The translations under genes were made by a program, and so were the position numbers. From Alphaproteobacteria bacterium (GTDB lineage: Bacteria; Pseudomonadota; Alphaproteobacteria; Rickettsiales; JABCZZ01), in NCBI GenBank assembly GCA_035906055.1, contig JAMIFV010000013.1, forward strand, positions 2,535 to 66,534: DNA of 64,000 nucleotides. Reading direction: 5' to 3'. Positions 876 through 52,570 of this stretch are shown piece by piece. Position 1 is the first letter of the stretch. Every line of letters starts with the position of its first letter. Below the pieces are notes generated by a model. That model was given only the letters and a program-made list of their open reading frames with translations. It was not told the origin of the DNA and did no database searches.

Positions 876-971
876 ACCCAAAACCGAATTCGGAATAACA
901 TTCCCGAATTCGGCCACAACACATTTGTCCTGCATAGGATGGCTTCGTAACCTTTGATACGGAGTTATACT

Positions 972-1181
972 ATGACACACACTACCTCGCTTCCTGAAAC
1001 TGGTTTTATGCGGCTTCCTGCCGTGCTTGCCGTTATTCCCGTCAGTAAATCAACATGGTGGGCAGGGGTCAGGTCTGGCCGTTATCCCAAAGCCGTGAAG
1101 TTGGGGGTAAAAATTACCGCGTGGCGCGTAGAGGACATACGCGCTTTAATTGCGCAGCATTCTGATTCCGCTGGCCTGTAA
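972..1181 (+). CDS. AlpA-family (MerR-like HTH) prophage/island transcriptional regulator
   Basis: Sequence ...FMRLPAVLAVIPVSKSTWWAGVRSGRYPKAVKLG.. is typical of AlpA/Phage_AlpA. ATG at 972 is preceded by GGAG at 961-964. The ORF track starts at TTG 954. Confidence 0.8.
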   Translation: MTHTTSLPETGFMRLPAVLAVIPVSKSTWWAGVRSGRYPKAVKLGVKITAWRVEDIRALIAQHSDSAGL

Positions 1182-1196
1182 CACAGGCGATGTACC

Positions 1197-2776: not shown

Positions 2777-2821
2777 AAGCAAACATTATGCAAGCTTGTT
2801 GATATTAATTACCCTGTCACT

Positions 2822-3154
2822 TCAATGCTTACCTTTCGAGGGAACTGGTGGTGGCATGACAGATTCGGCAGATTGCTCTTTCTGGCAAAATCGGCAGATA
2901 AGTGCCTCTCTTTTTATAATTTCTGCACAGAATGGGCATTTCTTGCCGTCCTCTGCCAGCCTGCGGGCATTCTCTGTATCCGGTCGCGCTTTCAGAAACA
3001 GGGAATGCAGTAGCGCAATCGGAAAGAAGAAAAGTCCATACACATACCAGACAAAGATGCTGTATCCTTTGTTTTTAGCAATCCCTGCCGGAAAGAACGC
3101 AAGGATGGTGGCCGTAATCAGCATTACTGGAAGGGTGTAATCTAGCGGTGACAT
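2822..3154 (-). CDS. small membrane protein with C-terminal zinc-ribbon (CPFC...CRFC)
   Basis: Two or three hydrophobic helices followed by CPFCAEIIKREALICRFC. Confidence 0.5.
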   Translation of the reverse strand: MSPLDYTLPVMLITATILAFFPAGIAKNKGYSIFVWYVYGLFFFPIALLHSLFLKARPDTENARRLAEDGKKCPFCAEIIKREALICRFCQKEQSAESVMPPPVPSKGKH

Positions 3155-3174
3155 ATTGGCGATTCCTGAAACCG

Positions 3175-3516
3175 TTAATCAATGCAAAATGTCTGGTAAA
3201 GGCCACCAATGCTGCGTTTCCATAATGTGCTACTTCCAGCCTCGTCTTCGGTAGGAATCATCCATACCTCATTGTCCGAATACATAAACTTGTGCCAGCC
3301 GCTATAGCCTCCGTAACCATTCTTGCTATTGATTTCTCCGCAGACAGTCACATGGCCTTCTTTCGATTTGTGAATGAACACATTGCGGTATTTCGTACTG
3401 GCCGGGTCTTTCAGTTCTTTTGCCATCGCCCGTTTGGCAGCCGCAATTGTTGGTGTATTCCCGGCATGGGCAGGCAGGGAAAGAAATAAAATAAGCAGAA
3501 TAGGAATATAGCGCAC
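3175..3516 (-). CDS. secreted hypothetical protein
   Basis: Signal-peptide-like RYIPILLILFLSLPAHA. I favour the GTG at 3516. The maximal ORF extends to 3594. Confidence 0.45.
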   Translation of the reverse strand: MRYIPILLILFLSLPAHAGNTPTIAAAKRAMAKELKDPASTKYRNVFIHKSKEGHVTVCGEINSKNGYGGYSGWHKFMYSDNEVWMIPTEDEAGSSTLWKRSIGGLYQTFCID

Positions 3517-3827
3517 ACTCGCCCCACAATCGCATAAGTTGGTGATCGGGCTGTTTGTAAACCGTAACAAGACGGTCACGGCGCTTTCGGCCAAAGACCT
3601 ATTATATAACGCCGTCAGCCCGACCGCATGGGTCGAGAGACGGCATCACTTCACGGCTGATGCTATTGCCGCTTGTTAAGAGGTTACAAAGCCCCGCAAG
3701 CGCCACTGCGCACTTGCAGACGAAAGCATAGGTAGAATCATATGGAAGTCAAACATAGTCTGATCGCATATAGAAACTTGTTTGCCATACAACTCTAACG
3801 GTAATAAGGTTATGACATTTCACAAAT

Positions 3828-6299: not shown

Positions 6300-6322
6300 T
6301 CGCCTATGGAGCATATAAGCAT

Positions 6323-8789: not shown

Positions 8790-8862
8790 AGTGATGTGTA
8801 TATTGCACTTCTTGAAAACCTCCCTGTTTTCGCCTCGCTGCAGCGAAACTATGAACAGGCTC
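8790..8862. repeat. family-B repeat, copy B1. The right half is clear and the left half is degenerate.
   Basis: ...cttgaaaacctccctgttttcgcctcgctgcagcgaaactatgaacaggctc aligns with 19885-19940. Confidence 0.6.
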
Positions 8863-8920
8863 TAATATCAGGGGCAATAAAAAAGCTTACTCCTCTGTAA
8901 ACTATGCTTATAATGGCCGC

Positions 8921-9810: not shown

Positions 9811-11196
9811 TTGCCCGGCTTGCATACGCAAGCATACGTAACGAACGCAAGGATAACCGTAGTGAAGCTCGTAAATGCCCTCCCCGATCGTGACGTTTCA
9901 TTGCCTGCGGTTGAGCAGCAAAGAACCGCAGAGCCTGCGCCGGTGGATAAGGAAGCATTAGAAGCTATTGAGCGCGGCGACCGTATCGTTGTCATTCTGG
10001 GGCGGGCGGGCACCGGTAAAACCACGCTTATACGCTCTGTCATGGAGAACAGTTCTGTTAACCAGGTTGTTGTAGCGCCGACCGGTGTTGCGGCTGTGAA
10101 TGCAGGTGGACAGACCATTCACTCTTTCTTCCGTATTCCCCCGCGGCTGCATAATTTGTCTGAGATACAGCCCCGCAAGGGCGGTGGCCGATTATTCAAG
10201 AACCTCAAGCGGGTCATCATAGATGAAATTTCCATGGTGCGTGCGGATCTGCTGGATGCGGTGGACTATGCCCTGCAAATAAACCGCAAAGACCAGCGGC
10301 CCTTTGGCGGGGTGCAGATGGTGCTCGTGGGGGATTTCCTGCAATTGCCGCCTGTTGTGCGCGGTGATGAAGAGAGTATTCTTTCCGGCAAAGGATATGA
10401 AACCCCGTTTGCCTTCAGCGCAAAATGCCTGCGCAACAATCCTGTTACGTCCATAGAGCTTTCCAAGGTGCACCGGCAGGATAACCCTGACTATATCAAC
10501 CTGCTGGGCAATCTTCGTTCCGGCAATGAACTGGAGGCCACTATCGATGCTTTTAACGCCGCTTGCCTGGGGGGGCACAAACGCGATGCAGCTCCGATTA
10601 TTTTAACCGGTACAAATGCGGTGGCAGATAAACACAATGCCCTGGGATTAAACAGCTTATCCGGTGAAACAACCATTTATGAAGGCGCGATTGAGGGTGA
10701 ATTCAAGTTAGACAAGGACAAGCTGCCCGCGCCTGAATTGCTCGCCCTGAAAGCGGGCGCACGCATCATGATGGTAAAGAACGATATAGCCAGAAACTGG
10801 GTAAACGGTTCGCTTGGAACGATCACCCGTCTGGGAAAGGACCGTGTCTGGGTGAAAATAGACGGTAAAGAGCGGCAGTTCGAAGTTGGAAAGGCGGGGT
10901 GGGAAAATGTTCGTTATGAGTGGGATGAAACCACCCAGCATATTGAAGCAAAAGTGGTGGGCAGCTACTCGCAGATTCCCGTTATACCCGCCTGGGCTTT
11001 AACCATACATAAAGCGCAAGGGTTGACGCTTGAGAATGTGCGCATTGATCTGGAGCGCGGTGCTTTTGTTTCCGGACAGGCATATGTTGCATTGTCCCGG
11101 GCGCGTTCTTTAGAGGGGCTTTCCTTTGCATCCCCGCTCAGGGTTTCGGATATTATCATTGATGCACGGCTGCTTCCCAAAGCACGGCATGATTAA
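9811..11196 (+). CDS. Pif1/RecD-like SF1 helicase (AAA_30/PIF1 family)
   Basis: ILGRAGTGKTT (Walker A), VIIDEISMV (Walker B), LVGDFLQLPPV, TIHKAQGLT, AYVALSRARSLEGL. The start is uncertain: TTG 9811 or GTG about 9860. Confidence 0.8.
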   Translation: MPGLHTQAYVTNARITVVKLVNALPDRDVSLPAVEQQRTAEPAPVDKEALEAIERGDRIVVILGRAGTGKTTLIRSVMENSSVNQVVVAPTGVAAVNAGGQTIHSFFRIPPRLHNLSEIQPRKGGGRLFKNLKRVIIDEISMVRADLLDAVDYALQINRKDQRPFGGVQMVLVGDFLQLPPVVRGDEESILSGKGYETPFAFSAKCLRNNPVTSIELSKVHRQDNPDYINLLGNLRSGNELEATIDAFNAACLGGHKRDAAPIILTGTNAVADKHNALGLNSLSGETTIYEGAIEGEFKLDKDKLPAPELLALKAGARIMMVKNDIARNWVNGSLGTITRLGKDRVWVKIDGKERQFEVGKAGWENVRYEWDETTQHIEAKVVGSYSQIPVIPAWALTIHKAQGLTLENVRIDLERGAFVSGQAYVALSRARSLEGLSFASPLRVSDIIIDARLLPKARHD

Positions 11197-16511: not shown

Positions 16512-16543
16512 TTCTAAATGGTGCCGTAGTAGGGGAGCAGAAA

Positions 16544-16563
16544 GGGGGGAAGCGTTCCCCCTC
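16544..16563. repeat. family-A terminal hairpin module, solo, directly downstream of the efp stop
   Basis: ggggggaagcgttccccctc resembles ggaggggaaacgctttcccctc at 39718. On the minus strand a T-run follows it, which is terminator-like. Confidence 0.5.
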
Positions 16564-16574
16564 AGATTTTAAGC

Positions 16575-17138: not shown

Positions 17139-17221
17139 AAATAGCCTCTTTCAAGAGTGTTCTGGTGTAATTCGGGGGCGCAAACTATCAGAATGGGCTG
17201 TAATTGCAATTTTATTAAGAA

Positions 17222-17318
17222 GGGCGGGCCGCCCCTCTTGCCTCCGGCAATTCATCCCTGCGAGGCCGGAGCCCACGCTCCTCCATGCCTATGGCGTAGC
17301 GGGGGAGGGACGCCCCCG
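17222..17318. repeat. family-A GC-rich palindromic element, copy A1
   Basis: gggcgggccgcccc ... ccctgcgaggccgg..cgctcctccatgcctatgg ... gggacgccccc. Confidence 0.65.
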
Positions 17319-18101: not shown

Positions 18102-18817
18102 GAGACTGCTTCAAAATTCTGCCACGCCTTGCCGCCGCATTCGCCGCGCTATGTATTTCTTCCGTTGCCCATGCGCAGGAGCCTAAACGCCCCACTGTAG
18201 TGGAACTGTTCACGGCGCAGGGCTGCCCGTCCTGTCCCAGGGCAGACAGCATGCTCAAGGACATATCCCAGCATCCTGACTATTTCCCGCTTTCCTTCCA
18301 TGTGACTTATTTTGACGGGGAAGGCTGGAAAGACCCTTATTCTTCAAAGGAAAACAACCTGCGCCAGCGCCGCTACCTGCTGGCTGTGGGCATAAAAGAG
18401 GCCTTTACGCCGCATTTCGTGGTGGACGGCACTATATCCTCTGCGGGCGGGGATGCCGGTTCGCTTGCCAAGGCGATAAAGCAGGCGCAGAACATCGCGC
18501 TGCAGTTTCCGCTTACCGTTAAGGCCGATCAGGCAGGTAACGGGCTGCATGTGACTATCGGCGACGACAAGAACTTCCTGCCAGCCGATGCCGTGCTGTA
18601 TGAGGTGCATTTCAAGAGCAGCACCGTTACGCCCATCCGCGCAGGCGGCAATTCGGGTATTACGTCCGAAAACGTGAATAACGTGCTTTCCTTCTTCAGG
18701 GTGCCGCTTTCCACGCAATATTATGTGCCGATGAGCCGCGTGACCGGCGACGGGGTGGCGTATCTGCTGCACAACAAGGAAGGCCGTATAATGGGTGCGG
18801 CTTATTATATAAAATAA
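18098..18817 (+). CDS. DUF1223-family secreted thioredoxin-like protein
   Basis: Signal peptide. VVELFTAQGCPSCPRAD ... HVTYFD. ATG 18098 overlaps the upstream TGA (ATGA). The ORF track starts at 18080. Confidence 0.75.
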   Translation: MRDCFKILPRLAAAFAALCISSVAHAQEPKRPTVVELFTAQGCPSCPRADSMLKDISQHPDYFPLSFHVTYFDGEGWKDPYSSKENNLRQRRYLLAVGIKEAFTPHFVVDGTISSAGGDAGSLAKAIKQAQNIALQFPLTVKADQAGNGLHVTIGDDKNFLPADAVLYEVHFKSSTVTPIRAGGNSGITSENVNNVLSFFRVPLSTQYYVPMSRVTGDGVAYLLHNKEGRIMGAAYYIK

Positions 18818-18997
18818 ATGGGGGGCACGCTGCCCCCGATTTCGTTCCACGAAATCTCCCCTGCGAGGTCGTCGTGAAGCACTCCTCCGCGCATACGGCA
18901 CCGAAGTTTATTCCAGAGCTTAGCCGTAGGTATGGAGGAGCGAAGCGACGACTCCGCAGGGGAATTTATGCGGAGCATAAAGGGGGCAGCGTGCCTC
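18818..18997. repeat. family-A GC-rich palindromic element, copy A2 (full, two inverted halves)
   Basis: The left arm tcccctgcgaggtcgtcgtgaagcactcctcc pairs with the right arm ggaggagcgaagcgacgactccgcagggga. Terminal hairpins are ggggggcacgctgccccc and gggggcagcgtgcc. It starts 1 nt after a stop codon. Confidence 0.8.
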
Positions 18998-19003
18998 TCT
19001 TAA

Positions 19004-19807: not shown

Positions 19808-19940
19808 ACTCTCTCTACTGCTGCCTGCTGCAAACAGTGACTTTCTGCGATCCGCTACTCATGTACTGACGTGTACACTGCATTGCGGTTCTCAAAAATC
19901 CCTGTTTTCGCTTCGCCGCAGCGAGATTATGAGCAGGCTC
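19793..19940. repeat. family-B MITE-like element, copy B3 (full length, perfect 12-bp TIR)
   Basis: The left end gagcctgctcat (19793-19804) is the reverse complement of atgagcaggctc (19929-19940). The core is ctcatgtactgacgtgtacac. Confidence 0.8.
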
Positions 19941-19948
19941 TAGCATAA

Positions 19949-23049: not shown

Positions 23050-23595
23050 ATGCTTGCAATGCAATACTCTATCCAGCTCCCGATAGGGCAGGATACCACC
23101 TTCGTCCGTGAGCGCGTTAAGGAACGCACCAGGCTTTTTCAGGGCCTTGCCGGGATGAAACATAAATCCTACCTGCTGAGCGAAGAGGACCGTTTATATG
23201 CGCCGTTTTATATCTGGTCGGATGTGGCCGAGGCGCGCAAGTTCCTGTTCGACGACCTGTTTCGCGGCGTGGTGAAAACCTTCCGCCGCCCGCGCGTGCG
23301 CACATGGATGGTGCTCGACGCCATGTATGGCGGCTTTAAGGAACAACCCGCATTCGCCATGCGCGAAGCGGATATAATCCCGCCGGAAGAGAACCTTGAA
23401 GCATTGTTCAGCCGCGAAAAAACCGCGCAGGAAGCGCTGAAGGGCGACAAAAACCTGCATTTCCATGCCATCGCGCTGGATGCCGAGCGCTGGGAGCTGC
23501 TGCGCTACAGCCTGTGGAGCGATCGGGTGTCTGCTGCAAAGCCTGAAAGCGACTGTGTGCAGACTTACGAAGTGCTCAGCTCACAAGGCGCTTAA
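23050..23595 (+). CDS. DUF4865-family protein
   Basis: MLAMQYSIQLP...YAPFYIWSD...FRRPRVRTW resembles the DUF4865 pattern as I remember it. Confidence 0.6.
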   Translation: MLAMQYSIQLPIGQDTTFVRERVKERTRLFQGLAGMKHKSYLLSEEDRLYAPFYIWSDVAEARKFLFDDLFRGVVKTFRRPRVRTWMVLDAMYGGFKEQPAFAMREADIIPPEENLEALFSREKTAQEALKGDKNLHFHAIALDAERWELLRYSLWSDRVSAAKPESDCVQTYEVLSSQGA

Positions 23596-23597
23596 AA

Positions 23598-23712
23598 TGC
23601 TTTTGCTTTAACCGTGCACGTCGTTATCCTTCGGACTCGGTGTGCTCATGTACTACGTGTACACTCCGCGCACCTCGCCTCGGCTGCCTAGTGCACAGCT
23701 AAAGCAAAAGCA
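23598..23712. repeat. family-B-related palindromic element, copy B4 (same core, different termini)
   Basis: The core gctcatgtactacgtgtacac is flanked by tgcttttgctttaaccgtgcac and gtgcacagctaaagcaaaagca. Confidence 0.7.
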
Positions 23713-23797
23713 CTTTGATATGAAGGCAAATATCACTTGCCCCGCCTGCCTACTTGGCTAAGGTGTGGCGTGCAAAATATATACATGAGGTAAAATC

Positions 23798-24799: not shown

Positions 24800-24831
24800 G
24801 ATATTTATTCTTTCACTGCGTTGCCGTATAA

Positions 24832-24898
24832 GTGGAGTAGTCTTACACTACGACCCCGCGTAGCGAGGGGGAGCGGTAGCGGGGGCGGTACGCCCCCC
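24832..24898. repeat. family-A element, partial copy A3
   Basis: gtggagtag..acgaccccgcgtagcgaggggg ... gggggcggtacgcccccc. Confidence 0.5.
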
Positions 24899-24918
24899 TA
24901 ATCAAATAAGGAGCATTT

Positions 24919-25714: not shown

Positions 25715-26977
25715 CTATTTTGCAGTAATCCTAAGAATCTTATCGGCATTCTGATTTATCAGCGCATGTATTCTTTCATAGACGGAAGAGTAAAGTTTCT
25801 GTGCGGTCAGCATGTCTATGAGCTTATGCGATAGTCTGGGCAGGGAAGATGCAAGTTTTATTAGCCGGGTACGCAGGTAAGGCATGCCTATGCCTGTTTC
25901 TTCAGCCATTTTTATCCAGTCACGATAAATGATTCGATCATGCAGATAAGCCCCCCCGATCTTCATGGCTACTTTTGTACTGAGGGCTGGATAAATGTGA
26001 GTAGAAAGCAAATCATAGAAAGGTGCGAGTATTAACCCGTTCTCTGCATGAAGAAATGAGAAATTCTTGCCATGCGCATCTGTATTGCCAATTAAATAAT
26101 TAAAAATCACAATGTCTGTCATTCGTAAGCGGTCTTTGGCGGGCTGAATGCTATAAGACTTCAACAAATCAAAGCATTGGGCCAGCGATGGCCCCCCTTC
26201 GCTCTGGTATTTTCTTTCGGGGGAAACTCCCAATGCCTGACAAAAATCTTCTTGATGGATACGAATAATTTTTCCTTCAAGGGCAGTGCGGTCGTAGCGT
26301 TCAATCATTAAGTAAGGAACCCCGGCTGCGGTTTGCGCCGAAACATTTGGTACAGGCACCAGCCCGGACACCATCTGCGCTAGCTGCATACAGAAAAACT
26401 CATTGGCAATACTCTGATCTACGCCGTGTATTGCAGGCTTTATAATGTGTGTGCTGTGCAGAGTTTCATTTGGTAAAGAAAATTCATTATCAAAGAATCT
26501 TACGACCATTTTATTCTGTGCGCCCGCCAGCGATAATTTTAACCCGCTTAAGCCCGCTAATAATGGCCTGTTAGGAAGAACACTTATCAGTTCTGCTAAT
26601 TTTTCTTCTTTCAGGTAATAGGGGGAGGATTGCGATGTTCTGGGGGGTAATTGCCCAGCGGGATATAAGGATATAGCGCCAGCGCACTCGCGTCCCAGCT
26701 CTTCTAATAAGGCATAGTCGTTTTTCTCGGAAACACCTAATATTTTTGCCAGTTTTGCGCGTACAGCATCATCAGGTAACAGGCCTGCAAAGAATGGACG
26801 GGTTTCAGCGTCTTCAAATTTTCTCTTTTTTAAAGGCAATGATACCGAAAGAGGCTTAGGGTTCTTAGAGGCTAACCATTTCTGATTATATTCAAATGCT
26901 AGGCGTCCGCTTTCGCGTTGCCTGAGAACGCCCACTTTATTTTCAAACAGATAAACATCCAGGTTTTTATCCGTCAT
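25715..26977 (-). CDS. hipA: type II toxin HipA-family serine/threonine kinase
   Basis: LSLAGAQNKM, HIIKP, ERYDR, IHQEDFCQALG, GNTDAHGKNFSFL. Confidence 0.9.
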   Translation of the reverse strand: MTDKNLDVYLFENKVGVLRQRESGRLAFEYNQKWLASKNPKPLSVSLPLKKRKFEDAETRPFFAGLLPDDAVRAKLAKILGVSEKNDYALLEELGRECAGAISLYPAGQLPPRTSQSSPYYLKEEKLAELISVLPNRPLLAGLSGLKLSLAGAQNKMVVRFFDNEFSLPNETLHSTHIIKPAIHGVDQSIANEFFCMQLAQMVSGLVPVPNVSAQTAAGVPYLMIERYDRTALEGKIIRIHQEDFCQALGVSPERKYQSEGGPSLAQCFDLLKSYSIQPAKDRLRMTDIVIFNYLIGNTDAHGKNFSFLHAENGLILAPFYDLLSTHIYPALSTKVAMKIGGAYLHDRIIYRDWIKMAEETGIGMPYLRTRLIKLASSLPRLSHKLIDMLTAQKLYSSVYERIHALINQNADKILRITAK

Positions 26978-27192
26978 GTTTTATTCCTGGTTTGGGCAAT
27001 CAGAACAACCCCCAACATTTCAAGAACCTGAAATATTTTACCGATCTGGCACGTTGCCTTACCTTTTTCCAATTCAATTATAAACCGCAGGCCTGTTCCA
27101 CTGGCTCCGGCTAGCTCTTGTTGTGTAAGATGCTGAATCTTTCGTTTTGTACGAACAAGTTTTCCTAGTGCAACCGGATCTGATATTCTCAT
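26974..27192 (-). CDS. hipB: HipB-like XRE-family HTH antitoxin
   Basis: LTQQELAGASGTGLRFIIELEKGK. The stop overlaps the hipA start (ATGA). Confidence 0.8.
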   Translation of the reverse strand: MRISDPVALGKLVRTKRKIQHLTQQELAGASGTGLRFIIELEKGKATCQIGKIFQVLEMLGVVLIAQTRNKT

Positions 27193-27473: not shown

Positions 27474-27593
27474 CCCCGCCGCTTGCGGCGTGGAGGAGCC
27501 GAAGGCGACGACCCCTTTAGAGGGGGTAAGCGTTAGCGAAGGGGGATGTCTTCATCCCCCTTACACTTAATACCCCGCCGCAAGCGGCGGGGG
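27474..27593. repeat. family-A GC-rich palindromic element, copy A4
   Basis: ccccgccgcttgcggcg ... tggaggagccgaaggcgacgacccctttagaggggg ... ccccgccgcaagcggcgggg. Confidence 0.7.
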
Positions 27594-38387: not shown

Positions 38388-39683
38388 ATGGAAAAAACGC
38401 TTCTGCAGCTTTCGCACATCAACCAATCCTTCTCCAAAGGCGAAGGGCGCAGCGCCAACGTGCTTGACGATGTGAACCTTTCCCTGCGTGAAGGGGAGAT
38501 CGTGGGGTTGCTGGGTAAGTCCGGTTCAGGAAAATCCACGCTGCTGCGCATCATCGCGGGGCTTATCAAGCCCACGGGAGGAAAGCGCGATTATATTCCG
38601 GGCGAGAATGCCAACGCGCTCAATATCGCCATGGTGTTCCAGACTTTCGCGCTGTTTCCATGGCTGAGCGTGCTCAAGAACGTGGAACTGGGGCTGGAAG
38701 CGTCAGGCCTTGATGCCAAGGAAACCCGCAAGCGCGCGCTTGCCGCCATCGACCTTATCGGCCTGGACGGCTATGAGTCCGCTTACCCACGTGAGCTTTC
38801 CGGCGGCATGAAGCAACGCGTGGGCTTTGCGCGCGCGCTGGTGGTGAACCCGGAAATACTGCTTATGGACGAGCCGTTCTCCGCGCTCGACGTGCTGACG
38901 GCGGAGACGCTCAAGACCGACTTCATAGAGCTGTGGAGCGACGGCAAGCTGCCTATCAAGTCGGTGATGCTGGTGACGCATAACATCGAGGAAGCGGTGC
39001 TCATGAGCGACCGTATCCTTATCTTCTCCTCGAATCCGGGGCGCATATTGCAGGAGATACGCGTGGATATGCCGCATCCGCGCGATCGCCAGTCATCCGC
39101 CTTCCGTGCTAAAGTAGAGCAGATATTCACGATCATGACGTCAGGCGCCAGGAAACGCGAGACGGGCACGGCCATGCGTGCGCCCGGCGCCAGCATGTAT
39201 GAAACGCTGCCGCATGTTTCGCCCAACCATCTGGCCGGTCTTATGGAGGCGCTTATCGCCGCGCCGTATCACGGCCATGCCGACCTGCCCGTGCTCGACC
39301 AGGCACTCGATCTTGGCACGGACGAAGTGCTGCGCATCGTGGACGTGCTGCGCATACTCAAATTTGCGGATGTGGAAGCCGGTGACATCAACCTCACCGT
39401 GGCGGGCAAGGCCTTCGCCGATTCCGATACGCAGCGCCGCAAGCAGATATTCGCCGAGCAGATCATGCAGAACATTCCGCTGGTTGCGTATATTTACCGT
39501 ATCCTGCAGGAAAGGCCAGGCAACCGCGCCCCGCATGCGCGCTTTGCCACGCATCTGGAAGACCATATGTCCGGAGAGGACGCCGCCGAAGCGCTCAATG
39601 CCGTTACCAGCTGGGGCCGTTATGCCGAGCTGTTTGCGTATGACGATGACTCGGAGACTTATAGTCTTGAAAATCCTACGTAG
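38388..39683 (+). CDS. ABC transporter ATP-binding protein (NitT/TauT-like) with a roughly 170-aa C-terminal extension
   Basis: GKSGSGKSTLL, LSGGMKQRVGFARAL, LLMDEPFSALD. Confidence 0.85.
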   Translation: MEKTLLQLSHINQSFSKGEGRSANVLDDVNLSLREGEIVGLLGKSGSGKSTLLRIIAGLIKPTGGKRDYIPGENANALNIAMVFQTFALFPWLSVLKNVELGLEASGLDAKETRKRALAAIDLIGLDGYESAYPRELSGGMKQRVGFARALVVNPEILLMDEPFSALDVLTAETLKTDFIELWSDGKLPIKSVMLVTHNIEEAVLMSDRILIFSSNPGRILQEIRVDMPHPRDRQSSAFRAKVEQIFTIMTSGARKRETGTAMRAPGASMYETLPHVSPNHLAGLMEALIAAPYHGHADLPVLDQALDLGTDEVLRIVDVLRILKFADVEAGDINLTVAGKAFADSDTQRRKQIFAEQIMQNIPLVAYIYRILQERPGNRAPHARFATHLEDHMSGEDAAEALNAVTSWGRYAELFAYDDDSETYSLENPT

Positions 39684-39694: not shown

Positions 39695-39856
39695 GGGGCG
39701 CGTTTCGCCCTTTATTGGAGGGGAAACGCTTTCCCCTCTGCGCATCCGCGCATTCACCCCTTGCGAGGTCGTCGCTTCGCTCCTCCATACCTACGGTTAG
39801 GCACTGGAATAAACATCGGTACCGTATGAGTGGATGAATGCTATATGACGCCCCCC
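39695..39856. repeat. family-A GC-rich palindromic element, copy A5
   Basis: ggggcgcgtttcgccc, ggaggggaaacgctttcccctc, gcgcatccgcgc, ccccttgcgaggtcgtcgcttcgctcctccatacctacgg ... Confidence 0.75.
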
Positions 39857-39910: not shown

Positions 39911-41575
39911 CTATTTCACTAAAAATAAATCCACGCGGTCGGCGGCGGCACCTTCGCTCTTGTTGCCAAGGGCGCGTACGTTCACGCGCTCGATATCAAT
40001 GCCTTTCGTCGTGGTGAGGTAGTTGCGCACCGCGATGCCGCGTGCCAGCGATACGCGCTTGGGATAGATGCCGTTTTCGTTCTTGCCGCCCGCATAGGAA
40101 AGAATATTCACGCGGGTTCCGGGCGACTGTTCAAGTTTGGCCGCTACCGTATCGAGCTGGCTGAACAATGCCTGCGAAACATCGGTTTCGCTTTCGCTGA
40201 ATATCAGGCGCATGTCGGGATCAGTGGAAGAACTGTCTTTCTTGCTCATTTGTTCCAGCAGCGCCTTATTGGCGGAGTCGGTTCTGGGAGCCGCGCTCAG
40301 CAGGTCTTCCTGCGTGCCGGATGGCAGCGAGGGAAGATCGCCCCTGGCATTGTCAGGCAGGGGTATCAGATCGGGTATATCTGCCATTTTGTTCGGTTCT
40401 GCCAGTGCGCTGGAGTCATCGGGCAGTGTCAGGTCGGACTTCTGTGTCGCGGGCGGCGCAATCGCATCACTCACCGGAGGCAGAGCCGGTTTTTCCGGCT
40501 CGGGCAGGCCTGAGGGAGCAGGTTCGGGAAGCGCCGGAGGCGTTGCGTCTATTGCCGACTCTGGCAGTTCCGGAGCGGTTTCAGGCTTCTTTTCTGTTGG
40601 CAGCGGGGCAGGAGTAAGCGTGGGCAGAGCCATCGGTGTACCAACGGCCATGGGGGCTTCAGGTTCCTTGGGAGCGGGTGGAATAGCGGCTGAGGCAGGC
40701 GCTGTTTCTGCCGGTTTGGTCGTGGTGCTACCGGATTTCAGGTTGGCGTCAGGCAACGGAGAACCCATCAGGGTGGGGCGAGTCATTTCCGATACGGTCG
40801 GTGGGGTTGGCAGAGTGGCAGGCGCAACTTCAATCTTGGGAGCAGCAGGCGTGCCTGGCGGAAGCGTATGCGGAAGTTCGGGAGGGGTTGGCAGGTTGCC
40901 CGGAGCGGGCGCGGGCGTGGAAGGCTTGCCGCTGATGAAGTCCGAAAGCTGGTCGCCGAGGCCGGGCTTGGCAGGCTCTGCCGGTGCGGCGGAAGTGGCC
41001 GGTGCACCCGGAACAGGCAGCGGTGCGGTGGCTTCGGGTTTAGGCAGTTCCGGCGCTGTGGGAAGTGCCGGGACCTTGTCTGTAGGAACGGTTACGGGAG
41101 TGGGCAGCTCCCTGATGGGGTCAGCAGGCAAAACGTTCAATTCCGGCGGGGTGGGAGTGAGCTCATTCGGCAGGTCTTTGATGGGAGGCAGCTCAGCGGG
41201 CATGGGAGGCACTACAACAGCAGGAGCAGGAGCGGGAACGGGCGTCTTGTGTTCGGTGTGGGGGATTTCTTTCACGGGCGCCGGTTTGGTTTCCTTAACC
41301 GGAGCGGGTTTGGCAGGCTTGGTTTCTTTCTTGGGGATTGCAGGCTTTTTGGATTTTTCTACAGGTTTGCTTTCCGCTTTTTTGCTGGCGGGCGCTACGG
41401 GTTTTGCTTCTTCTTTTCTGGCAGGTGCCGCTGCGGGGGCGGGTTTGCTGCTTTTCTCAAGCACGTCGAGATTGATCTCGATGCTGGATGCGGCATTGGC
41501 CGGTGCGGAAACCCCGGCTATCAGTGCTGCAACGCATACGCTCGATATATATTTACGCAAAAAAGCAGTTTTCAT
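39911..41575 (-). CDS. OmpA/MotB-like peptidoglycan-binding protein with a long Pro/Ala/Thr-rich low-complexity region
   Basis: Signal peptide MKTAFLRKYISSVCVAALIAGVSAPANA. Short KPAPVKETKPAPVKE repeats. The C-terminus ..NILSYAGG...RVSLARGIAVRNYL...RV..RALG is OmpA_C-like. Confidence 0.7.
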   Translation of the reverse strand: MKTAFLRKYISSVCVAALIAGVSAPANAASSIEINLDVLEKSSKPAPAAAPARKEEAKPVAPASKKAESKPVEKSKKPAIPKKETKPAKPAPVKETKPAPVKEIPHTEHKTPVPAPAPAVVVPPMPAELPPIKDLPNELTPTPPELNVLPADPIRELPTPVTVPTDKVPALPTAPELPKPEATAPLPVPGAPATSAAPAEPAKPGLGDQLSDFISGKPSTPAPAPGNLPTPPELPHTLPPGTPAAPKIEVAPATLPTPPTVSEMTRPTLMGSPLPDANLKSGSTTTKPAETAPASAAIPPAPKEPEAPMAVGTPMALPTLTPAPLPTEKKPETAPELPESAIDATPPALPEPAPSGLPEPEKPALPPVSDAIAPPATQKSDLTLPDDSSALAEPNKMADIPDLIPLPDNARGDLPSLPSGTQEDLLSAAPRTDSANKALLEQMSKKDSSSTDPDMRLIFSESETDVSQALFSQLDTVAAKLEQSPGTRVNILSYAGGKNENGIYPKRVSLARGIAVRNYLTTTKGIDIERVNVRALGNKSEGAAADRVDLFLVK

Positions 41576-41655
41576 GTCAGAACCTCCATTATGGTGTATT
41601 AATTTATGTAGTAAACACCGCAAAGGCAAGGGGGAAGTGACGTGCCCGCAAAGGG

Positions 41656-47713: not shown

Positions 47714-48112
47714 ATGGATAGTTTGACATTCGATCTCGTTACCCCGCAGGCAACCTTTTTCTCCGGTCAGGTGAATATGGTGGAAGCGCCCGGCACCCTT
47801 GGTGATTTCGGCGTACTGCCGGGTCACATGCCTTTCATTTCCACGTTGCGCGCAGGCATCGTCACCATTCACGACGCCCGCAACAACCAGTCCAAGCTTT
47901 TTGTGGCCGGTGGCATTGCCGAAGTGAATGCGAAGTCCTGCACCATTCTTGCTGAACAGGTCGTAGACCTCGCCACTTTCTCCCGCACCGATGCGGAAGG
48001 CAGGCTTGCCAAGGCGAAAGAAGCGGCGAACACTGCGTTCGACGATAACGCCAAGGTGGTGGCTGCACACGAAATCGAAGTGGCCGAAGCTTTATTGCTC
48101 GCAATAAATTAA
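47714..48112 (+). CDS. atpC: F1 ATP synthase epsilon subunit
   Basis: FDLVTPQATFFSGQVNMVEAPGTLGDFGVLPGHMPFISTLRAGIV. ATG at 47714. Confidence 0.9.
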   Translation: MDSLTFDLVTPQATFFSGQVNMVEAPGTLGDFGVLPGHMPFISTLRAGIVTIHDARNNQSKLFVAGGIAEVNAKSCTILAEQVVDLATFSRTDAEGRLAKAKEAANTAFDDNAKVVAAHEIEVAEALLLAIN

Positions 48113-48318
48113 AAGGGGCGTCCCGCCCCCACTCGTGCATCCGCACTCGTTCCCCCTCTAAAGGGGTCGTCGTGAAGGACTCCTGCGCGCATACGGCATC
48201 GGCTTCTATTCCAGTGCATTGCAATTGGCGTGGAGGCGCGAAGCGACGATGACGCAGGGGAATTTATGCGGAGCATAAATGGGGGCATAATTAAAGAAAT
48301 GGGGGCAGCGTGCCCCCC
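48113..48318. repeat. family-A GC-rich palindromic element, copy A6 (full)
   Basis: Begins 1 nt after the atpC stop. ggggcgtcccgccccc, cgtgcatccgcacg, ccccctctaaaggggtcgtcgtgaaggactcc ... ggaggcgcgaagcgacgatgacgcagggg ... gggggcagcgtgcccccc. Confidence 0.8.
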
Positions 48319-48331
48319 GTAAAAAATATTT

Positions 48332-49348: not shown

Positions 49349-49872
49349 GGCGTGACCGGCTGCTTGCCCGCCAGGTAACCGGAAAGGCGCAACACGTAGT
49401 CTTCCGCCAGTTCCCTGAGCAGGCGTTCGTTCAGGTTGTCCTCGGCTTCGTAGGTGGCGAAGTTGGCGTTGGGCACCACGTTATAGCTGCTGGTGCGGCG
49501 GATGGTGCCGGTGAAGGGTTTTTCCTTCGTGTTATTGGGCGTGAGGGTGAAGTTGGTATCGAACTTAACATTGTAGCGCAGGATAGTGCCGTCACTGCGC
49601 ACGATGGAAGGCACCAGCGTGCGGGCGAGTTCCACCTGAAGCGTGTAGTCGGGTTTGTCTTTCACCGTACCCTGCGGGTTGAGGCGGTCTTCCAGAGACG
49701 CGCGCAGCACCTGAGCGAACCTGCCGCCACCGATGGGCGCCACAATCACGTTGCCCTGCACGATGGAAGCGTTTTCGGCCCTGGTGGCCGCATCGCCGTA
49801 CATCGGCTGGAAACCGCAACCGGCAAGGGAGAATGCAACCACAAGGATTAACGCATTAAGCCGCGACAACAT
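49345..49872 (-). CDS. lptE: LPS-assembly lipoprotein LptE
   Basis: Lipobox [12 protein letters not shown], conserved leuS-lptE-holA order. ATG 49872 overlaps the leuS 3' end by 17 nt. Confidence 0.8.
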
Positions 49873-52570
49873 TGACGATTTTCCCCGGCACCACGATGAT
49901 TTTTTTGATCTGCTTACCTGCCAGGGTATCCTGCACATTCTTCTGGGAAAGCGCAAGCGATTCGAGCGCCTCTTTGGTGGCGTCATGTGCGGCTTTGAAG
50001 GTGGTGCGCAGCTTGCCGTTGATCTGCACGGCGATGGTGATCTCATCGTCCTGACAAAGCGCGGGGTCGGCTTTCGGCCAGGGGGTGCTCAGCAAGGTCT
50101 GCTTATGGCCGAGCAGCGCCCAAGCTTCTTCGGCAAAATGCGGGATGAACGGTTCGGCAAGGCGCAGCAGCGCTTCGAGCGCTTCCTTAAGTACAGGCGT
50201 AAGAGGCGAGGAGCGGGGAAATTCCTCGTTCGTGCCTCGTGCCTCGTTTCTCGCTACTTCCTCTATGACATTGGAAAGCTCGCGGATGCGCGCGACGGCC
50301 TTATTGAAATGGAAGTTCTCGATATGGCGGGTCACGTCGTTGATGGCTTTATGGGTCACGCGGCGAAGACCAAGCGTTGCTTCATCGGTCGCGGTGGGCG
50401 TGGCGGGCTGGCCGGTGATGACGGGCGCAAGGGTCTGCACCAGTTTCCACAGACGGTTGATGTAGCGCCATGCGCCGTCGATCCCGGCATCCGTCCATTC
50501 AAGGTCGCGGTCGGGCGGGCTGTCGGAAAGCATGAACAGGCGTGCCGTATCCGCGCCATAGGTTTCGATGATATGCCTGGGGTCCACCGTATTCTTTTTG
50601 GACTTGCTCATTTTTTCCGAGCGCCCAACCGTCACGGGCTTGCGCGTAGTGACATGCACGGCACCCGCGCCTTCCTTCACCACTTCGTCGGGCTGCAGCC
50701 ATTTACCGTCAGCGTCTTTATACGTCTCGTGGCAGATCATGCCCTGCGTCATCAGGCCGTTGAAGGGTTCGTCCGGCACGTTATAACCGCAAGCTTTGAG
50801 CGCGCGCGTGAAGAAGCGCGAATAGAGCAGGTGCAGAACCGCGTGTTCCACGCCGCCGATATACTGATCCACCGGCAGCCAGCGTGCCACGGCATCGTTT
50901 ATCGGTTGCGTATCGGGCAATGAGCAGAAGCGCGCGAAATACCATGACGATTCGAAGAACGTATCGAACGTATCGGTTTCGCGTTCTGCTTTTTTGCCGC
51001 AGGTGGGGCAATTCACATGTTTCCATGTGGCATGGCGGGCGAGCGGGTTGCCGGGCGTGTCGAAGGTCACGTCTTCCGGCAGTTTCACCGGCAGGTCTTT
51101 TTCAGGCACGGGCACAGCGCCGCAATCGTTGCAATAGATGATGGGAATGGGGCAGCCCCAGTAACGCTGGCGCGAAACGCCCCAGTCGCGCAGGCGATAG
51201 TTCACCTTGGCTTCGCCCATGTTCTTTTTGGCGAGTTCGGCAACGGCTTTTTCTTTGGCTTCATCGGAGGTGAGGCCGTTGAGGAACCCGGAATTGATCA
51301 TCGTGCCGTCGCCGGTATAGGCTTCCGCGCTTACATCGCCACCGCTGACCACGGGCAAAATGGGTTGGTTATATTTTTTGGCGAAGTCATAGTCGCGCTG
51401 GTCATGCGCGGGGCAGCCGAAAATGGCGCCGGTGCCGTAATCCATGAGCACGAAATTGGCGACGAAGAGTTTTACCTTGCGGTCTTCAAACGGATGCTGG
51501 ATCTCAAGGCCGGTATCAAAGCCTTTCTTTTCGGCTTTCTCTATCGCTTCTTCGCTCGTGCCGATGCGGTTGCATTCGTCGATGAAGGCTGAGAGTTCGG
51601 AGTTCAGAGTTCGGAGTTCAGTTGCAATGGGGTGGTTAGGAGAGATGGCACAAAAACTCATGCCAAAAAGTGTATCCGGCCTCGTAGTATAAATTTCCAA
51701 TTTAATGGGGAAAACGCTTTCCCCGCCTGCGCTGCGCGCAGTCTCCCCTTGCGGGGTCGTCGCTACGCTCCTCCACGACTCCGGCGAAATCTGTAAAATC
51801 ATTTTCGCGCCGACGGACTTACCTATCCATCTGTCCTGCATGATGCGGACCTTATCCGGCCAGTTCTCCAGCGTGGAAAGTCCCTGCAAAAGATCTTCAG
51901 CGAACTGCGTGATACGCAGGAACCACTGCGAGAGTTTGCGGCGCTCAACAAGCGCACCGGAGCGCCAGCCGCGCCCTTCGATCACCTGTTCGTTGGCGAG
52001 CACGGTATGGTCCACCGGGTCCCAGTTCACGTCGGCTTCCTTGCGGTAGGCGAGGCCAGCCTTCAGGAAATCGAGAAAGAATTTCTGTTCGTGCCTGTAA
52101 TACTCAGGGTCGCAGGTGGCGAGCTCGCGCGACCAGTCGTAAGACAGTCCTATGGTCTGCAACTGTTCGCGCATACTGGCCATATTTTTATATGTCCATT
52201 CGCGCGGATGCACATTGCGCTCTATCGCGGCGTTCTCGGCGGGCAGGCCGAACGCGTCCCATCCCATCGGGTGCAGCACGTCGAATCCGCAGCCCATTTT
52301 GTAACGCGCCACCACATCGCCCAGCGTGTAGTTGCGTACATGCCCCATATGGATGTTGCCCGACGGATAGGGGAACATCTCCAAGACATAGTATTTTTGT
52401 TTGTGGGGCACGCTGCCCCCGCTCGTGCTTTGCACTCGTTCGCCTGCGGGGTCGTCGCTGACGCTCCTCAGCCCATCCGGCGAAGCTTTAAAGCTGTTGT
52501 TATCTCTCCAGAAACGTTGCCATTTCTGTTCCGACTCGCGGAAGTTATAACGTGTATTGGCATCACTCAT
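49856..52570 (-). CDS. leuS: leucine--tRNA ligase, carrying two in-frame family-A repeat insertions
   Basis: [15 protein letters not shown] (HIGH), TTRPDT (editing domain), KMSKSKKN (KMSKS). Confidence 0.95.
51705..51790. repeat. family-A half-element, copy A7, in frame inside leuS (about residues 261-289)
   Basis: ggggaaaacgctttcccc gcctgcgctgcgcgcag tctccccttgcggggtcgtcgctacgctcctcca is nearly collinear with intergenic copy A5 (39718-39790). Confidence 0.75.
52403..52485. repeat. family-A half-element, copy A8, in frame inside leuS (about residues 29-57)
   Basis: ggggcacgctgccccc gctcgtgctttgcactcgtt cgcctgcggggtcgtcgctgacgctcctca is collinear with the left halves of A2 and A6. Confidence 0.75.

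What the first reader, a model, noticed from the sequence alone, without database searches (positions are those of the whole stretch)
51705..51790. Second in-frame family-A insertion in leuS, at the entry to the editing (CP1) domain
About 86 nt here are nearly collinear with intergenic copy A5 (39718-39790). The matching segment is ggggaaaacgctttcccc / gcgctgcgcgc / tctccccttgcggggtcgtcgctacgctcctcca.

The encoded peptide, [29 protein letters not shown], lies immediately before the conserved TTRPDT motif. It aligns residue for residue with the first insert: SP-x-x-x-RSV-x-x-x-P-x-GE....S..G.SV. The same element is therefore read in the same frame and orientation at two places in one essential gene.
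Basis: partly seen in the sequence, partly recalled or inferred. Interest (0 to 1): 0.8.

Follow-up and report, generated by a model that had tools for sequence, protein, structure and literature searches.

The report
Mobile repeat inserted in-frame in leuS
An 85-base hairpin-rich repeat that is scattered between genes in this alphaproteobacterial genome has also landed, without breaking the reading frame, in a surface loop at the start of the proofreading domain of the essential enzyme leucyl-tRNA synthetase; this is a new example of the 'selfish DNA inside proteins' known from Rickettsia.

Summary
Window 51701-51788 is a copy of a dispersed repeat with about 11 copies in 64 kb. A profile built only from seven intergenic copies finds it at E=9e-12, and finds the first leuS insert at E=1e-7. 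It encodes LeuRS aa 261-289, 13 residues into the Pfam editing domain and 5 residues before TTRPDT.

The two closest orthologues (84% identity) have only a 7-10 aa loop there, so the segment is lineage-specific. AlphaFold keeps an intact LeuRS fold, with the insert as a low-confidence excursion between two preserved strands.

The element is three covarying hairpins plus a conserved 19-nt core. It occurs as singlets and inverted doublets, like REP/REPIN elements. Its behaviour matches Rickettsia palindromic elements.

Results beyond the finding:
- Relatives carry family-A copies at the same three LeuRS loops, in both orientations and several frames.
- A related genome has one in HemF.
- About 14 neighbouring genes have none.
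- The in-gene copies do not co-evolve with leuS (96% against 81% identity in one pair, 60-63% against 82-84% in another).
- 'Same frame' is a mild coincidence, because 4-5 of 6 frames are open.

It is a new family of a known kind. How it moves is unknown.

The parts
49856..52570 (-). leuS (leucyl-tRNA synthetase, 904 aa), the host gene of both in-frame element copies
   Evidence: ORF. PDB LeuRS matches at E=3e-243. Pfam tRNA-synt_1, editing domain PF13603 at aa 248-445, and Anticodon_1. AlphaFold model has mean pLDDT 83 and TM 0.88 to E. coli LeuRS 4AQ7/5OMW.
51701..51788 (+). Family-A element copy 'insert 2', the finding. Written in the element's H1-to-core orientation. It is translated from the minus strand as LeuRS aa 261-289 (51704-51790).
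   Evidence: nhmmer E=9.3e-12 with a profile built from intergenic copies only. 76-78% identical to 39713-39800. Absent from orthologues P0002 and P0003.
51707..51724 (+). Hairpin H1 of insert 2: GGGGAAA-ACGC-TTTCCCC
   Evidence: Predicted in both the DNA and RNA folds. Stems covary among 13 copies (GGGGAAA/TTTCCCC, GGGGGCA/TGCCCCC, GGGGGCG/CGCCCCC, GGGGGATG/CATCCCCC). Mean best stem is 6.6 against 3.2 in shuffles.
51727..51741 (+). Hairpin H2 of insert 2: CTGCGC-TGC-GCGCAG
   Evidence: Stems covary (TTTATGC/GCATAAA, GATTTCGT/ACGAAATC, GTGC/GCAC, CCGCGC/GCGCGG). Mean best stem is 5.0 against 2.75 in shuffles.
51745..51756 (+). Weak hairpin H3: CCCC-TTGC-GGGG
   Evidence: centroid structure. 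Only a weak excess over shuffles, 3.5 against 2.7.
51756..51774 (+). Conserved 19-nt core GTCGTC-GC.TAC.GC-TCCTCC. On the coding strand it reads GGAGGA-GCGTAGC-GACGAC and encodes RSVATT.
   Evidence: Most conserved block of the 13-copy alignment. The centre is a tiny palindrome with covarying stems GC/GC, GTG/CAC, GCC/GGC and GGC/GCC (listing). The same 19-mer recurs in many phyla.
51775..51784 (+). Tail ACGACTCCGG. On the coding strand CCGGAGTCGT encodes PES. It pairs with the start of the core (GTCGT/ACGAC).
   Evidence: DNA fold. Intergenic copies have CCGTAG or CCGTAT here. Genic copies read in this frame have CCGGAG or CCGGAT, which avoids an in-frame TAG.
51671..51688 (-). TTRPDT, the threonine-rich editing-site motif of LeuRS (aa 295-300), 5 residues downstream of the insert
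   Evidence: Invariant T295, T296, R297, P298 and T300 in 52 homologues.
52396..52484 (+). Family-A copy 'insert 1', translated from the minus strand as LeuRS aa 30-54 ([25 protein letters not shown]). It belongs to a different subfamily (H1 GGGGCA-CGC-TGCCCC, H2 GTGC-TTT-GCAC, core centre GCTGACGC).
   Evidence: nhmmer E=1.3e-7 with the intergenic-only profile. pLDDT below 50 for aa 34-56. The site is also occupied in P0002 and P0003, but by a copy only 60-63% identical.
39713..39800 (+). Intergenic singlet 'A5', between the convergent genes 38388-39683 (ABC ATPase) and 39911-41629 (OmpA-domain protein)
18817..19003 (.). Intergenic inverted doublet (18817-18899 on + and 18920-19003 on -) between the convergent genes DUF1223 and BacA
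   Evidence: I1, D1.
48109..48324 (.). Intergenic inverted doublet (48109-48197 on + and 48226-48324 on -), just downstream of holA, the last gene of the leuS-lptE-holA run. Its H1 hairpins score as terminator-like on the minus strand.
24821..24901 (-). Intergenic singlet between the epimerase and short-chain dehydrogenase genes
27488..27563 (-). Intergenic singlet with variant modules (H1 GGGGGATG/CATCCCCC; core centre GCC-TTC-GGC)
17213..17296 (+). Degenerate intergenic copy downstream of efp. A further fragment lies at 16531-16564 on the minus strand.

Best explanation
Window 51701-51788 is one copy of a non-autonomous, hairpin-rich repeat about 85 nt long ('family A'). The element consists of three short GC-rich hairpins, a conserved 19-nt core and a short tail. 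In this genome it lies mostly in gaps just past gene ends, as singlets and as inverted doublets.

One copy entered leuS at the tip of the first beta-hairpin of the CP1 editing domain. It survived for three reasons:
(a) the GC-rich element has no stop codon in the frame used;
(b) its length keeps the frame;
(c) the encoded hydrophilic 29-aa peptide hangs from a solvent-exposed loop whose length already varies among LeuRS enzymes.
The enzyme therefore stays functional.

Shown here: family membership, absence from the nearest orthologues, in-frame translation, position in the fold, recurrence of family-A copies at the same three LeuRS loops in related genomes, and evolution decoupled from the host gene.

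Inferred: that the copy arrived by transposition or by recombination/gene conversion templated on other copies; that a single-strand-DNA hairpin-recognising enzyme (RAYT/Y1-like) moves it; and that the peptide has no function of its own.
For: - Family membership and significance.
- In the window, 9 of 11 copies are intergenic and only the two leuS copies are genic.
- Presence/absence: P0002 and P0003 (84% identity, same synteny) lack it.
- Structure: the fold is intact and the insert is a low-confidence excursion between conserved strands. It lies inside PF13603.
- Hairpins H1 and H2 covary. Inverted doublets are present.
- Recurrence in independent assemblies: P0010 leuS has three copies in three frames; P0006 has two in the opposite orientation; P0011 has an in-frame doublet. 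All 11 hits in about 90 kb of relatives' DNA are genic.
- A second host gene: HemF in P0010's genome carries a 25-aa in-frame copy.
- Decoupled evolution: the site-1 copy is 96% identical between L001 and L002 against 81% for the rest of leuS (third codon positions 26/27 against 62%, p=7e-5). The window's site-1 copy is only 60-63% identical to theirs against 82-84% for the gene.
- The P0010 site-2 remnant shares 27 of 29 nt with the window's insert 2, although the two LeuRS are only 67% identical.
Against: - No transposase of any kind lies near the element, and no Y1/RAYT was found among about 58 window ORFs scanned.
- No terminal inverted repeats or target-site duplication could be defined. 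The empty site in relatives has itself diverged, so the exact borders are uncertain.
- Only one assembly carries insert 2, and read support could not be checked.
- The strong concentration in leuS is not predicted by a purely random selfish-insertion model: none of about 14 neighbouring orthologue sets has such an indel.
- Nucleotide conservation above that of the host gene could also mean selection on the element itself.
Confidence: 0.8

Rival explanations
1. The element is kept in leuS for a nucleic-acid-level function. Its hairpins in the mRNA or DNA at three domain-boundary positions of leuS would act as pause, processing or attenuation signals. The peptide would be a by-product.
For: - What recurs across lineages is the element, not the peptide. 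Relatives use both orientations and all reverse frames, and only the hairpins are orientation-independent.
- The copy at site 1 is the most conserved 81-nt stretch of leuS between L001 and L002, including synonymous sites.
- leuS is hit in every genome examined, while about 14 neighbouring genes are not.
- H1 hairpins of intergenic copies score as terminator-like.
Against: - Many close LeuRS orthologues have no insert at all at these sites (P0004, P0005, P0012, P0015), so no function is required.
- Module sequences differ between copies.
- The RNA fold of insert 2 is no more stable than shuffles (z=-1.0).
- The H1 hairpins inside leuS are not flagged as terminators.
- High similarity can equally come from recent insertion or from gene conversion.
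Confidence: 0.1
2. The inserted peptide has been recruited by LeuRS as a functional surface module, for example modulating CP1 movement, tRNA contact or a partner interaction. It would be retained by selection on the protein.
For: - It sits 5 residues before the TTRPDT editing motif, on the hairpin that starts the mobile CP1 domain.
- Insertions recur at exactly three LeuRS loops across a clade.
- Rickettsial RPE literature has raised the possibility that such insertions create new protein sequence (background in PMC3767692).
Against: - Peptides at the same loop are unrelated between lineages and come from different frames and orientations.
- Predicted confidence is low: pLDDT about 60 for insert 2 and below 50 for insert 1.
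- The nearest relatives work without it.
Confidence: 0.07
3. Assembly or binning artefact: a repeat copy was spliced into leuS by the assembler.
For: Only one contig carries this exact protein. Repeats are classic sites of misassembly. The contig could not be retrieved for checking.
Against: - The copy is not identical to any other copy in the window (76-78% to the best one). A collapse or chimera would need identical sequence.
- Both flanks are collinear leuS and the frame is kept.
- Family-A insertions at the same loop occur in independent JGI, ENA, Logan and NCBI assemblies.
Confidence: 0.03
4. Ordinary loop expansion. The segment would be lineage-specific low-complexity growth of a variable LeuRS loop, and its resemblance to the intergenic copies would be compositional.
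For: This loop varies in length among LeuRS enzymes; the Neisseria loop is longer than the E. coli one (alignment). The window's leuS does contain a true slippage expansion elsewhere, at aa 774-787.
Against: The profile from intergenic copies gives E=9e-12 over 80 nt, with the modules collinear. Shuffles give 0 matches. The same modules are found in the other inserts.
Confidence: 0.01

Closest known systems
Rickettsia palindromic elements (RPE-1 to RPE-10) and Wolbachia palindromic elements
   Same: These are short palindromic repeats that occur between genes and also inside pre-existing ORFs without destroying the frame. Hosts include aminoacyl-tRNA synthetase genes. The inserted peptides map to protein surfaces, and insertion hot spots versus common ancestry have been debated (PMC3767692, read). 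The behaviour seen here is the same: in-frame copies, surface loops, hot spots, several copies per gene.
   Different: - RPEs are described as 100-150 bp elements of AT-rich obligate intracellular Rickettsia and Wolbachia (R. japonica is 32% GC; PMC3767692). This element is about 85 nt, GC-rich, and sits in a 55% GC genome with free-living-type gene content.
- Its architecture is modular, with three small hairpins plus a core, and it forms inverted doublets.
- No sequence relationship to RPEs was tested.
- Here the in-gene copies are demonstrably not co-evolving with the host gene. In contrast, RPE-1 to RPE-3 positions are reported as conserved among orthologues.
REP / BIME / REPIN elements mobilised by RAYT (Y1, HUH) transposases
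   Same: Both are short imperfect palindromes, very abundant, mostly extragenic just past gene ends. [quoted passage not shown] The 18.8-kb and 48.1-kb doublets fit this. Several intergenic copies end in CCGTAG; from my own knowledge, a GTAG head is typical of REPs.
   Different: - A unit here is a chain of three hairpins plus a core, not one palindrome of 20-40 nt.
- No RAYT was found in the 64 kb, and the rest of the genome is unavailable.
- REPs are by definition extragenic. In-frame genic copies are not a described feature.
MITEs that insert in frame in bacterial genes (for example Correia elements, ERIC, cyanobacterial Nezha; named from my own knowledge, not checked here)
   Same: Small non-autonomous elements with secondary structure, occasionally found inside ORFs.
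   Different: MITEs are defined by terminal inverted repeats matching a parent IS and by target-site duplications. Neither could be identified here.
d(GCGNAGC) / d(GCGNNAGC) mini-hairpin DNA
   Same: On the coding strand, the centre of the 19-nt core is GCGTAGC (insert 2), GCGAAGC (A5), GCGCAGC (L001) and GCGTCAGC (insert 1). These are exactly the motif family reviewed in PMC13037366, which occurs at single-strand initiation sites recognised by primases and at a phage N4 promoter hairpin.
   Different: This is a motif match only. A stem-length test against shuffles is not significant for the core (3.2 against 3.3). Some copies have other small palindromes there (GTG-AAG-CAC, GCC-TTC-GGC). No role in single-stranded DNA was tested.

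Membership tests
In-frame palindromic repeat insertions of the RPE kind (behavioural class) | A copy of a dispersed repeat lies inside a pre-existing ORF without breaking the frame | tested here: met
   leuS is an intact 904-aa ORF. The element is aa 261-289, and orthologues lack it.
In-frame palindromic repeat insertions of the RPE kind (behavioural class) | The inserted peptide lies on the protein surface and leaves the fold intact | tested here: met
   By prediction only. The AlphaFold model has TM 0.88 to E. coli LeuRS. The insert lies between strands 251-261 and 290-295 at pLDDT about 60; insert 1 is below 50.
Rickettsia palindromic elements (sequence family) | Sequence similarity to an RPE consensus; host in Rickettsia or Wolbachia | not tested
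   No RPE sequences or models were available in the tools. Rfam has no matching family. The host is a 55% GC alphaproteobacterium whose LeuRS is at most 67% identical to proteins labelled 'Rickettsiales bacterium' MAG. I therefore do not file it as an RPE.
REP / REPIN | Short imperfect palindrome, many copies, mostly extragenic | tested here: met
   There are 11 copies in 64 kb, 9 of them intergenic. Hairpins H1 and H2 covary. However, a unit is a three-hairpin chain of about 85 nt, longer than a classical REP.
REP / REPIN | [quoted passage not shown] | tested here: met
   18817-18899 with 18920-19003, and 48109-48197 with 48226-48324. P0011 carries an in-frame doublet in leuS.
REP / REPIN | Conserved GTAG-type head next to the palindrome | tested here: inconclusive
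   CCGTAG is present in A5, in the 18920 copy and in L123 site 1. CCGTAT is present in three other copies. CCGGAG or CCGGAT is present in the genic copies. There are too few copies to call a consensus.
REP / REPIN | A cognate RAYT (Y1 transposase) gene in the genome, usually flanked by REPs | tested here: not met
   No Y1_Tnp or other transposase was found among about 58 ORFs of the window. The only recombinase is a phage-type integrase at 1661-2776. This covers 64 kb only, and a RAYT is usually single-copy, so its absence here says little.
MITE | Terminal inverted repeats and a target-site duplication | tested here: not met
   The ends of a unit (A/T-rich flank plus H1 on one side, CCGTAG tail on the other) are not inverted repeats of each other. 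The flanks of 7 copies show only A/T-richness and no consistent duplication.
Intein or other self-removing insert | Splicing domain with conserved blocks, at least about 130 aa | tested here: not met
   The insert is 29 aa. No Pfam domain other than the LeuRS domains was found.

The most novel reading that the evidence does not exclude
Family-A elements may not be mere passengers.

(1) They may be specifically targeted to, or maintained at, three domain-boundary loops of leuS across a whole alphaproteobacterial clade. There they are kept homogeneous at the nucleotide level beyond coding needs (96% against 81% identity; third codon positions 96% against 62%). That would imply a DNA- or RNA-level role, or a site-specific insertion/conversion mechanism.

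(2) Their 19-nt core GGAGGA-GCGNAGC-GACGAC, which contains a GNA mini-hairpin motif, may be an undescribed motif shared by repeat families in many bacterial phyla, in haloarchaea and in phages. That would point to a common host or mobile-element factor that recognises it.
Probability: 0.12. Interest if true: 0.85.

Novelty: new member of a known kind. Interest (0 to 1): 0.55.

Why it matters
In-frame colonisation of essential proteins by selfish repeats is textbook for Rickettsia but is thought of as a peculiarity of that lineage. This case shows the same process in a GC-rich, apparently free-living alphaproteobacterial lineage, with a REP/REPIN-like element.

It hits the proofreading domain of an aminoacyl-tRNA synthetase twice in one gene. 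In relatives, insertions occur up to three times per gene, in both orientations and in several frames.

The case offers a natural series of occupied, empty, truncated and replaced sites for several questions:
- how proteins tolerate insertions and acquire new surface segments;
- how repeats inside genes stay homogeneous with the repeat family in the rest of the genome;
- whether some loops are true insertion hot spots.

Practically, such inserts inflate and confuse orthologue alignments and annotation of metagenome-assembled genomes.

Tried and rejected
1. **Peptide search in the 5.8-billion-protein index**, using three concatenated insert variants. Only 31 candidates were collected and none scored. 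Two earlier attempts failed on parameter limits.
2. **Exhaustive HMMER search of 1.84 billion representatives** with the 34-aa insert. It gave 13 weak hits, all WD40 or other tandem-repeat proteins (VRSVAFSPDGETLASAGGDGTV). This is chance resemblance, not host proteins. A library of one representative per 50% cluster cannot reveal lineage-specific inserts.
3. **Retrieving the window's own contig** through its LeuRS: not on record.
4. **Rfam.** Nothing but one tRNA in the window, and nothing in nine loci carrying the core.
5. **'Conserved loop closed by a lineage-specific stem'** as a general description of the cross-phylum 19-mer. This is rejected: 149 of 229 occurrences have no directly closing pair.
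6. **Mini-hairpin significance.** The best-stem test on the core does not differ from shuffles. Only the by-eye covariation of the 2-3 bp centre supports it.
7. **Target-site duplication and exact borders.** These cannot be defined, because the loop in the 'empty' orthologues has diverged.
8. **Terminator role.** Only the 48-kb doublet's H1 hairpins are flagged, and the scan overall is not enriched (18 against 17.4 expected).
9. **Literature search for the core sequence or its peptides:** nothing relevant.
10. **The third extra segment of this LeuRS** (aa 774-787) is not family A. It is a 7-nt tandem slippage.
11. **Open frames spanning EERSDD in high-GC loci** are mostly spurious long ORFs and were not counted as genic insertions.
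Full report
**1. The observation**

leuS is the 904-aa ORF at 49856-52570 on the minus strand, and the peptide [29 protein letters not shown] is residues 261-289, window 51704-51790.

The DNA is collinear with the intergenic copy at 39713-39800. Identity is 78% without gaps over 77 nt and 66 of 87 columns with gaps. The 31-nt box matches twice in the window at 3 or fewer mismatches, against none in 100 shuffles.

To avoid circularity I built an nhmmer profile from seven intergenic copies only. It finds 51705-51784 at E=9.3e-12 and the first leuS insert (52403-52480) at E=1.3e-7. The two insert peptides align without gaps.

Two details need correcting. TTRPDT begins five residues after the insert. 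The net gain over the nearest orthologues is about 20 aa, because a 7-10 aa loop was replaced.

**2. The repeat family**

The window holds about 11 copies. Nine lie in gaps just past gene ends. Four of these form two inverted doublets, at 18817-19003 and 48109-48324. Only the two leuS copies are genic.

A unit, read on the plus strand for insert 2, has these parts:
- an A/T-rich flank;
- hairpin H1, GGGGAAA-ACGC-TTTCCCC;
- hairpin H2, CTGCGC-TGC-GCGCAG;
- a weak hairpin H3, CCCC-TTGC-GGGG;
- a 19-nt core, GTCGTCGCTACGCTCCTCC;
- a tail, ACGACTCCGG.

Among 13 copies from the window and from relatives, the stems of H1 and H2 change by compensatory substitutions. Mean best stem is 6.6 against 3.2 in shuffles for H1, and 5.0 against 2.75 for H2. 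Pairing is therefore what is conserved in those two modules.

The element has no stop codon in four or five of its six frames. No Rfam family matches. No transposase lies in the window apart from a phage-type integrase in an unrelated island.

**3. It is an insertion, and where it sits**

The exact protein exists once in the public collection (P0001). Its closest relatives, P0002 and P0003 (84% identity, same DUF3576-leuS-lptE-holA synteny), have VAGCKLQEFQT or IAGNKQAP where the window has 30 residues.

Pfam places the editing domain at aa 248-445. An AlphaFold model built with 52 homologues has mean pLDDT 83. It keeps strands 251-261 and 290-295, with the insert between them at pLDDT about 60. 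Insert 1 (aa 34-56) is below 50. The model superposes on E. coli LeuRS (4AQ7, 5OMW) with TM 0.88.

The solved Neisseria enzyme already has a longer loop at this point than other LeuRS, so the site naturally varies in length.

**4. What the relatives add**

In 120 LeuRS homologues, three places carry long lineage-specific segments:
- the N-terminal linker (21 proteins with 12 or more extra residues);
- the CP1-entry hairpin (12 proteins);
- a loop near residue 410 of CP1 (20 proteins).

I fetched DNA for several relatives.
- **P0010** has family-A copies at all three sites, each read in a different reverse frame. Its site-2 copy is truncated, yet it shares 27 of 29 nt with the window's insert 2 although the two enzymes are only 67% identical.
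- **P0006** has copies at sites 1 and 2 in the opposite orientation. Both are read in one frame.
- **P0011** has an in-frame inverted doublet at site 1 and a half unit at site 2.
- **HemF** (coproporphyrinogen oxidase), on the same contig as P0010's leuS, carries a 25-aa in-frame copy. This is confirmed against solved HemF structures, where the alignment breaks exactly at the insert.

So in-frame insertion is a general habit of this family, and 'same frame and orientation' is not a rule.

**5. Two unexpected results**

First, in about 90 kb of relatives' DNA all 11 profile hits are genic: ten in leuS and one in hemF. The window's intergenic density predicts about nine intergenic copies in those flanks, but none were found. 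About 14 other syntenic orthologue sets show no repeat-type indel. These include SucA (965 aa), MnmG, MnmE, ParA, ParB, HolA and AsmA. The loci were chosen around leuS, so this is biased, but leuS is clearly favoured.

Second, the in-gene copies do not evolve with their host.
- Between L001 and L002 the site-1 copy is 78/81 identical, against 81.4% for the rest of the gene (p=2e-4).
- At third codon positions it is 26/27 against 62% (p=7e-5). It is the best-conserved 81-nt stretch of the gene.
- The window's site-1 copy is only 60-63% identical to theirs, against 82-84% for the gene (p=5e-5 and 8e-7). It carries different H1 and H2 modules.
- Insert 2 of the window is closer to L001's site-1 copy (84%) than the window's own site-1 copy is (76%).

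The simplest reading is repeated insertion at permissive sites, or gene conversion by other family copies. Nucleotide-level selection is the alternative.

**6. Mechanism, with steps marked**

Shown:
- a dispersed hairpin repeat;
- a copy inside leuS that the nearest orthologues lack;
- translation in an open frame;
- a surface-loop position in an otherwise intact fold;
- recurrence at the same loops elsewhere;
- decoupled evolution.

Inferred:
- the copy arrived by transposition or templated recombination;
- only stop-free, frame-preserving copies in tolerant loops survive;
- the peptide is a passenger.

There is a small sign of such filtering. Intergenic copies end in CCGTAG or CCGTAT, whereas the four genic copies read in the RSV frame have CCGGAG or CCGGAT, where TAG would be a stop. 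P0010's site-1 copy, read in another frame, keeps GTAG.

How the element moves is unknown. Its doublets and its position just past gene ends resemble REP/REPIN elements, which use RAYT transposases (PMC3337134). No RAYT is present in the 64 kb.

**7. Comparison with what is known**

The behaviour is that of Rickettsia palindromic elements. These sit in pre-existing ORFs without destroying them, including synthetase genes, on protein surfaces, and with debated hot spots (PMC3767692).

I do not file this element as an RPE. The host, base composition, length and architecture differ, and sequence similarity was not tested. Architecturally it is nearer to REP/REPIN elements. It fails the MITE criteria (no terminal inverted repeats, no target-site duplication). 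It is a new family of a known kind.

**8. Side observation, unexplained**

The 19-nt core GTCGTCGCTNCGCTCCTCC gave these results:
- 84 stretches in viral contigs;
- a longer variant gave 34 stretches in metagenomes.

The hits fall into recognisable families with different flanks. They come from Chloroflexota, candidate phyla radiation (CPR) bacteria, Bacteroidota, Actinomycetota, Myxococcota, Proteobacteria, haloarchaea and phages of 31-66% GC.

Five scrambled versions of the core give no match at 3 or fewer mismatches in the same 823 kb of loci, against 134 for the real core. Most of those 134 are the ascertained hits themselves, so the core is sparse per genome.

On the purine-rich strand the centre reads GCGNAGC, or GCGTCAGC in insert 1. 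This is the 'mini-hairpin DNA' motif reviewed in PMC13037366. My stem test does not separate the core from shuffles, and most occurrences have no closing stem. No paper in the held library mentions the sequence. I report it as a lead and not as a finding.

**9. Verdict**

The finding is real and correctly interpreted. It is an RPE-like, in-frame insertion of a REP/REPIN-like repeat into the editing domain of LeuRS. It is the second such copy in the gene and part of a clade-wide pattern centred on three LeuRS loops.

It is not categorically new. What lifts it above a routine case is the leuS bias, the evidence for turnover or conversion of in-gene copies, and the widely shared core.

Noticed in passing
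window 51756-51774 and 39768-39786; loci L004-L122, L124-L157, L160-L239: The element's 19-nt core GTCGTCGCTNCGCTCCTCC recurs in repeat families and single sites across many bacterial phyla, haloarchaea and phage contigs of 31-73% GC. It is often near contig ends. Counts are far above the roughly 17 chance hits expected in 596 Gb. Its centre matches the GCGNAGC mini-hairpin DNA motif. No Rfam family or paper describes it.
   Followed up: partly
L177 (IMG/VR contig, 33% GC), around position 2743-2761: The GC-rich core sits in frame in a 1,986-aa phage ORF, within a low-complexity linker (…STGEGRSEATTQEEPAAKPKPK…). It is read in the same frame as the leuS RSVATT. The same site is conserved in about 12 related phage contigs.
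   Followed up: no
L131 6434-7417 (same metagenome contig as P0010's leuS): Coproporphyrinogen III oxidase (HemF) carries a 25-aa in-frame family-A insertion (SPHVGTPEERSDDLAGGRARSVSGGSVLPTIK) just before the WFGGG motif.
   Followed up: yes
window 50204-50257 (leuS aa 772-789): A third lineage-specific extra segment of this LeuRS ([14 protein letters not shown]; the relatives have 2 residues there) is not family A. It is a local 7-nt tandem slippage, ACGAGGC ACGAGGC ACGAACGAGG, in an anticodon-domain loop.
   Followed up: yes
window 36-8629: Low-GC3 island (GC3 0.35-0.52, against about 0.7 elsewhere). It encodes an AlpA-like regulator, an HTH protein, a phage-type integrase (1661-2776), a NACHT NTPase (3828-6299) and a KAP-family P-loop NTPase (6323-8629). 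It looks like an integrated element with defence-type genes. A PIF1-like helicase follows at 9811-11196.
   Followed up: partly
window 25715-27192: HipA-family toxin kinase (25715-26977, minus strand) with a small upstream ORF (26974-27192). Both have low GC3 (0.33-0.42). A family-A copy lies next to them at 27488-27563.
   Followed up: no
window 8816-8864 and 19894-19942: A different 49-nt repeat (86% identical, AAA..TCCCTGTTTTCGC.TCGC.GCAGCGA.A.TATGA.CAGGCTCTA) lies at the island border and just downstream of sucA. This is a second repeat family.
   Followed up: no
window 48301-48317 and 48114-48130 (minus strand): The H1 hairpins of the intergenic doublet are each followed by a T-rich tract and score as intrinsic-terminator-like directly after holA. 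Intergenic family-A copies may double as terminators.
   Followed up: partly
L158 (GCA_016307145.1, contig JADMIO012726902.1): The relative with the in-frame doublet (P0011) comes from an NCBI assembly whose contig numbering runs into the millions. It may be a host-associated or contaminant bacterium in a large eukaryotic or metagenome project.
   Followed up: no
P0017, P0030, P0058, P0081 (LeuRS homologues): Other genomes of the clade carry unrelated repeat-like peptides at two or three of the same LeuRS loops, for example SEATRGGATAEPERGKRSP at sites 2 and 3 of P0030, and AQDPAQSL at sites 1 and 2 of P0017. This suggests that several repeat families exploit the same loops.
   Followed up: partly
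window 23594-23716: Inverted repeat with 26-nt arms (88% complementary) 71 nt apart, in the gap after the DUF4865 gene.
   Followed up: no
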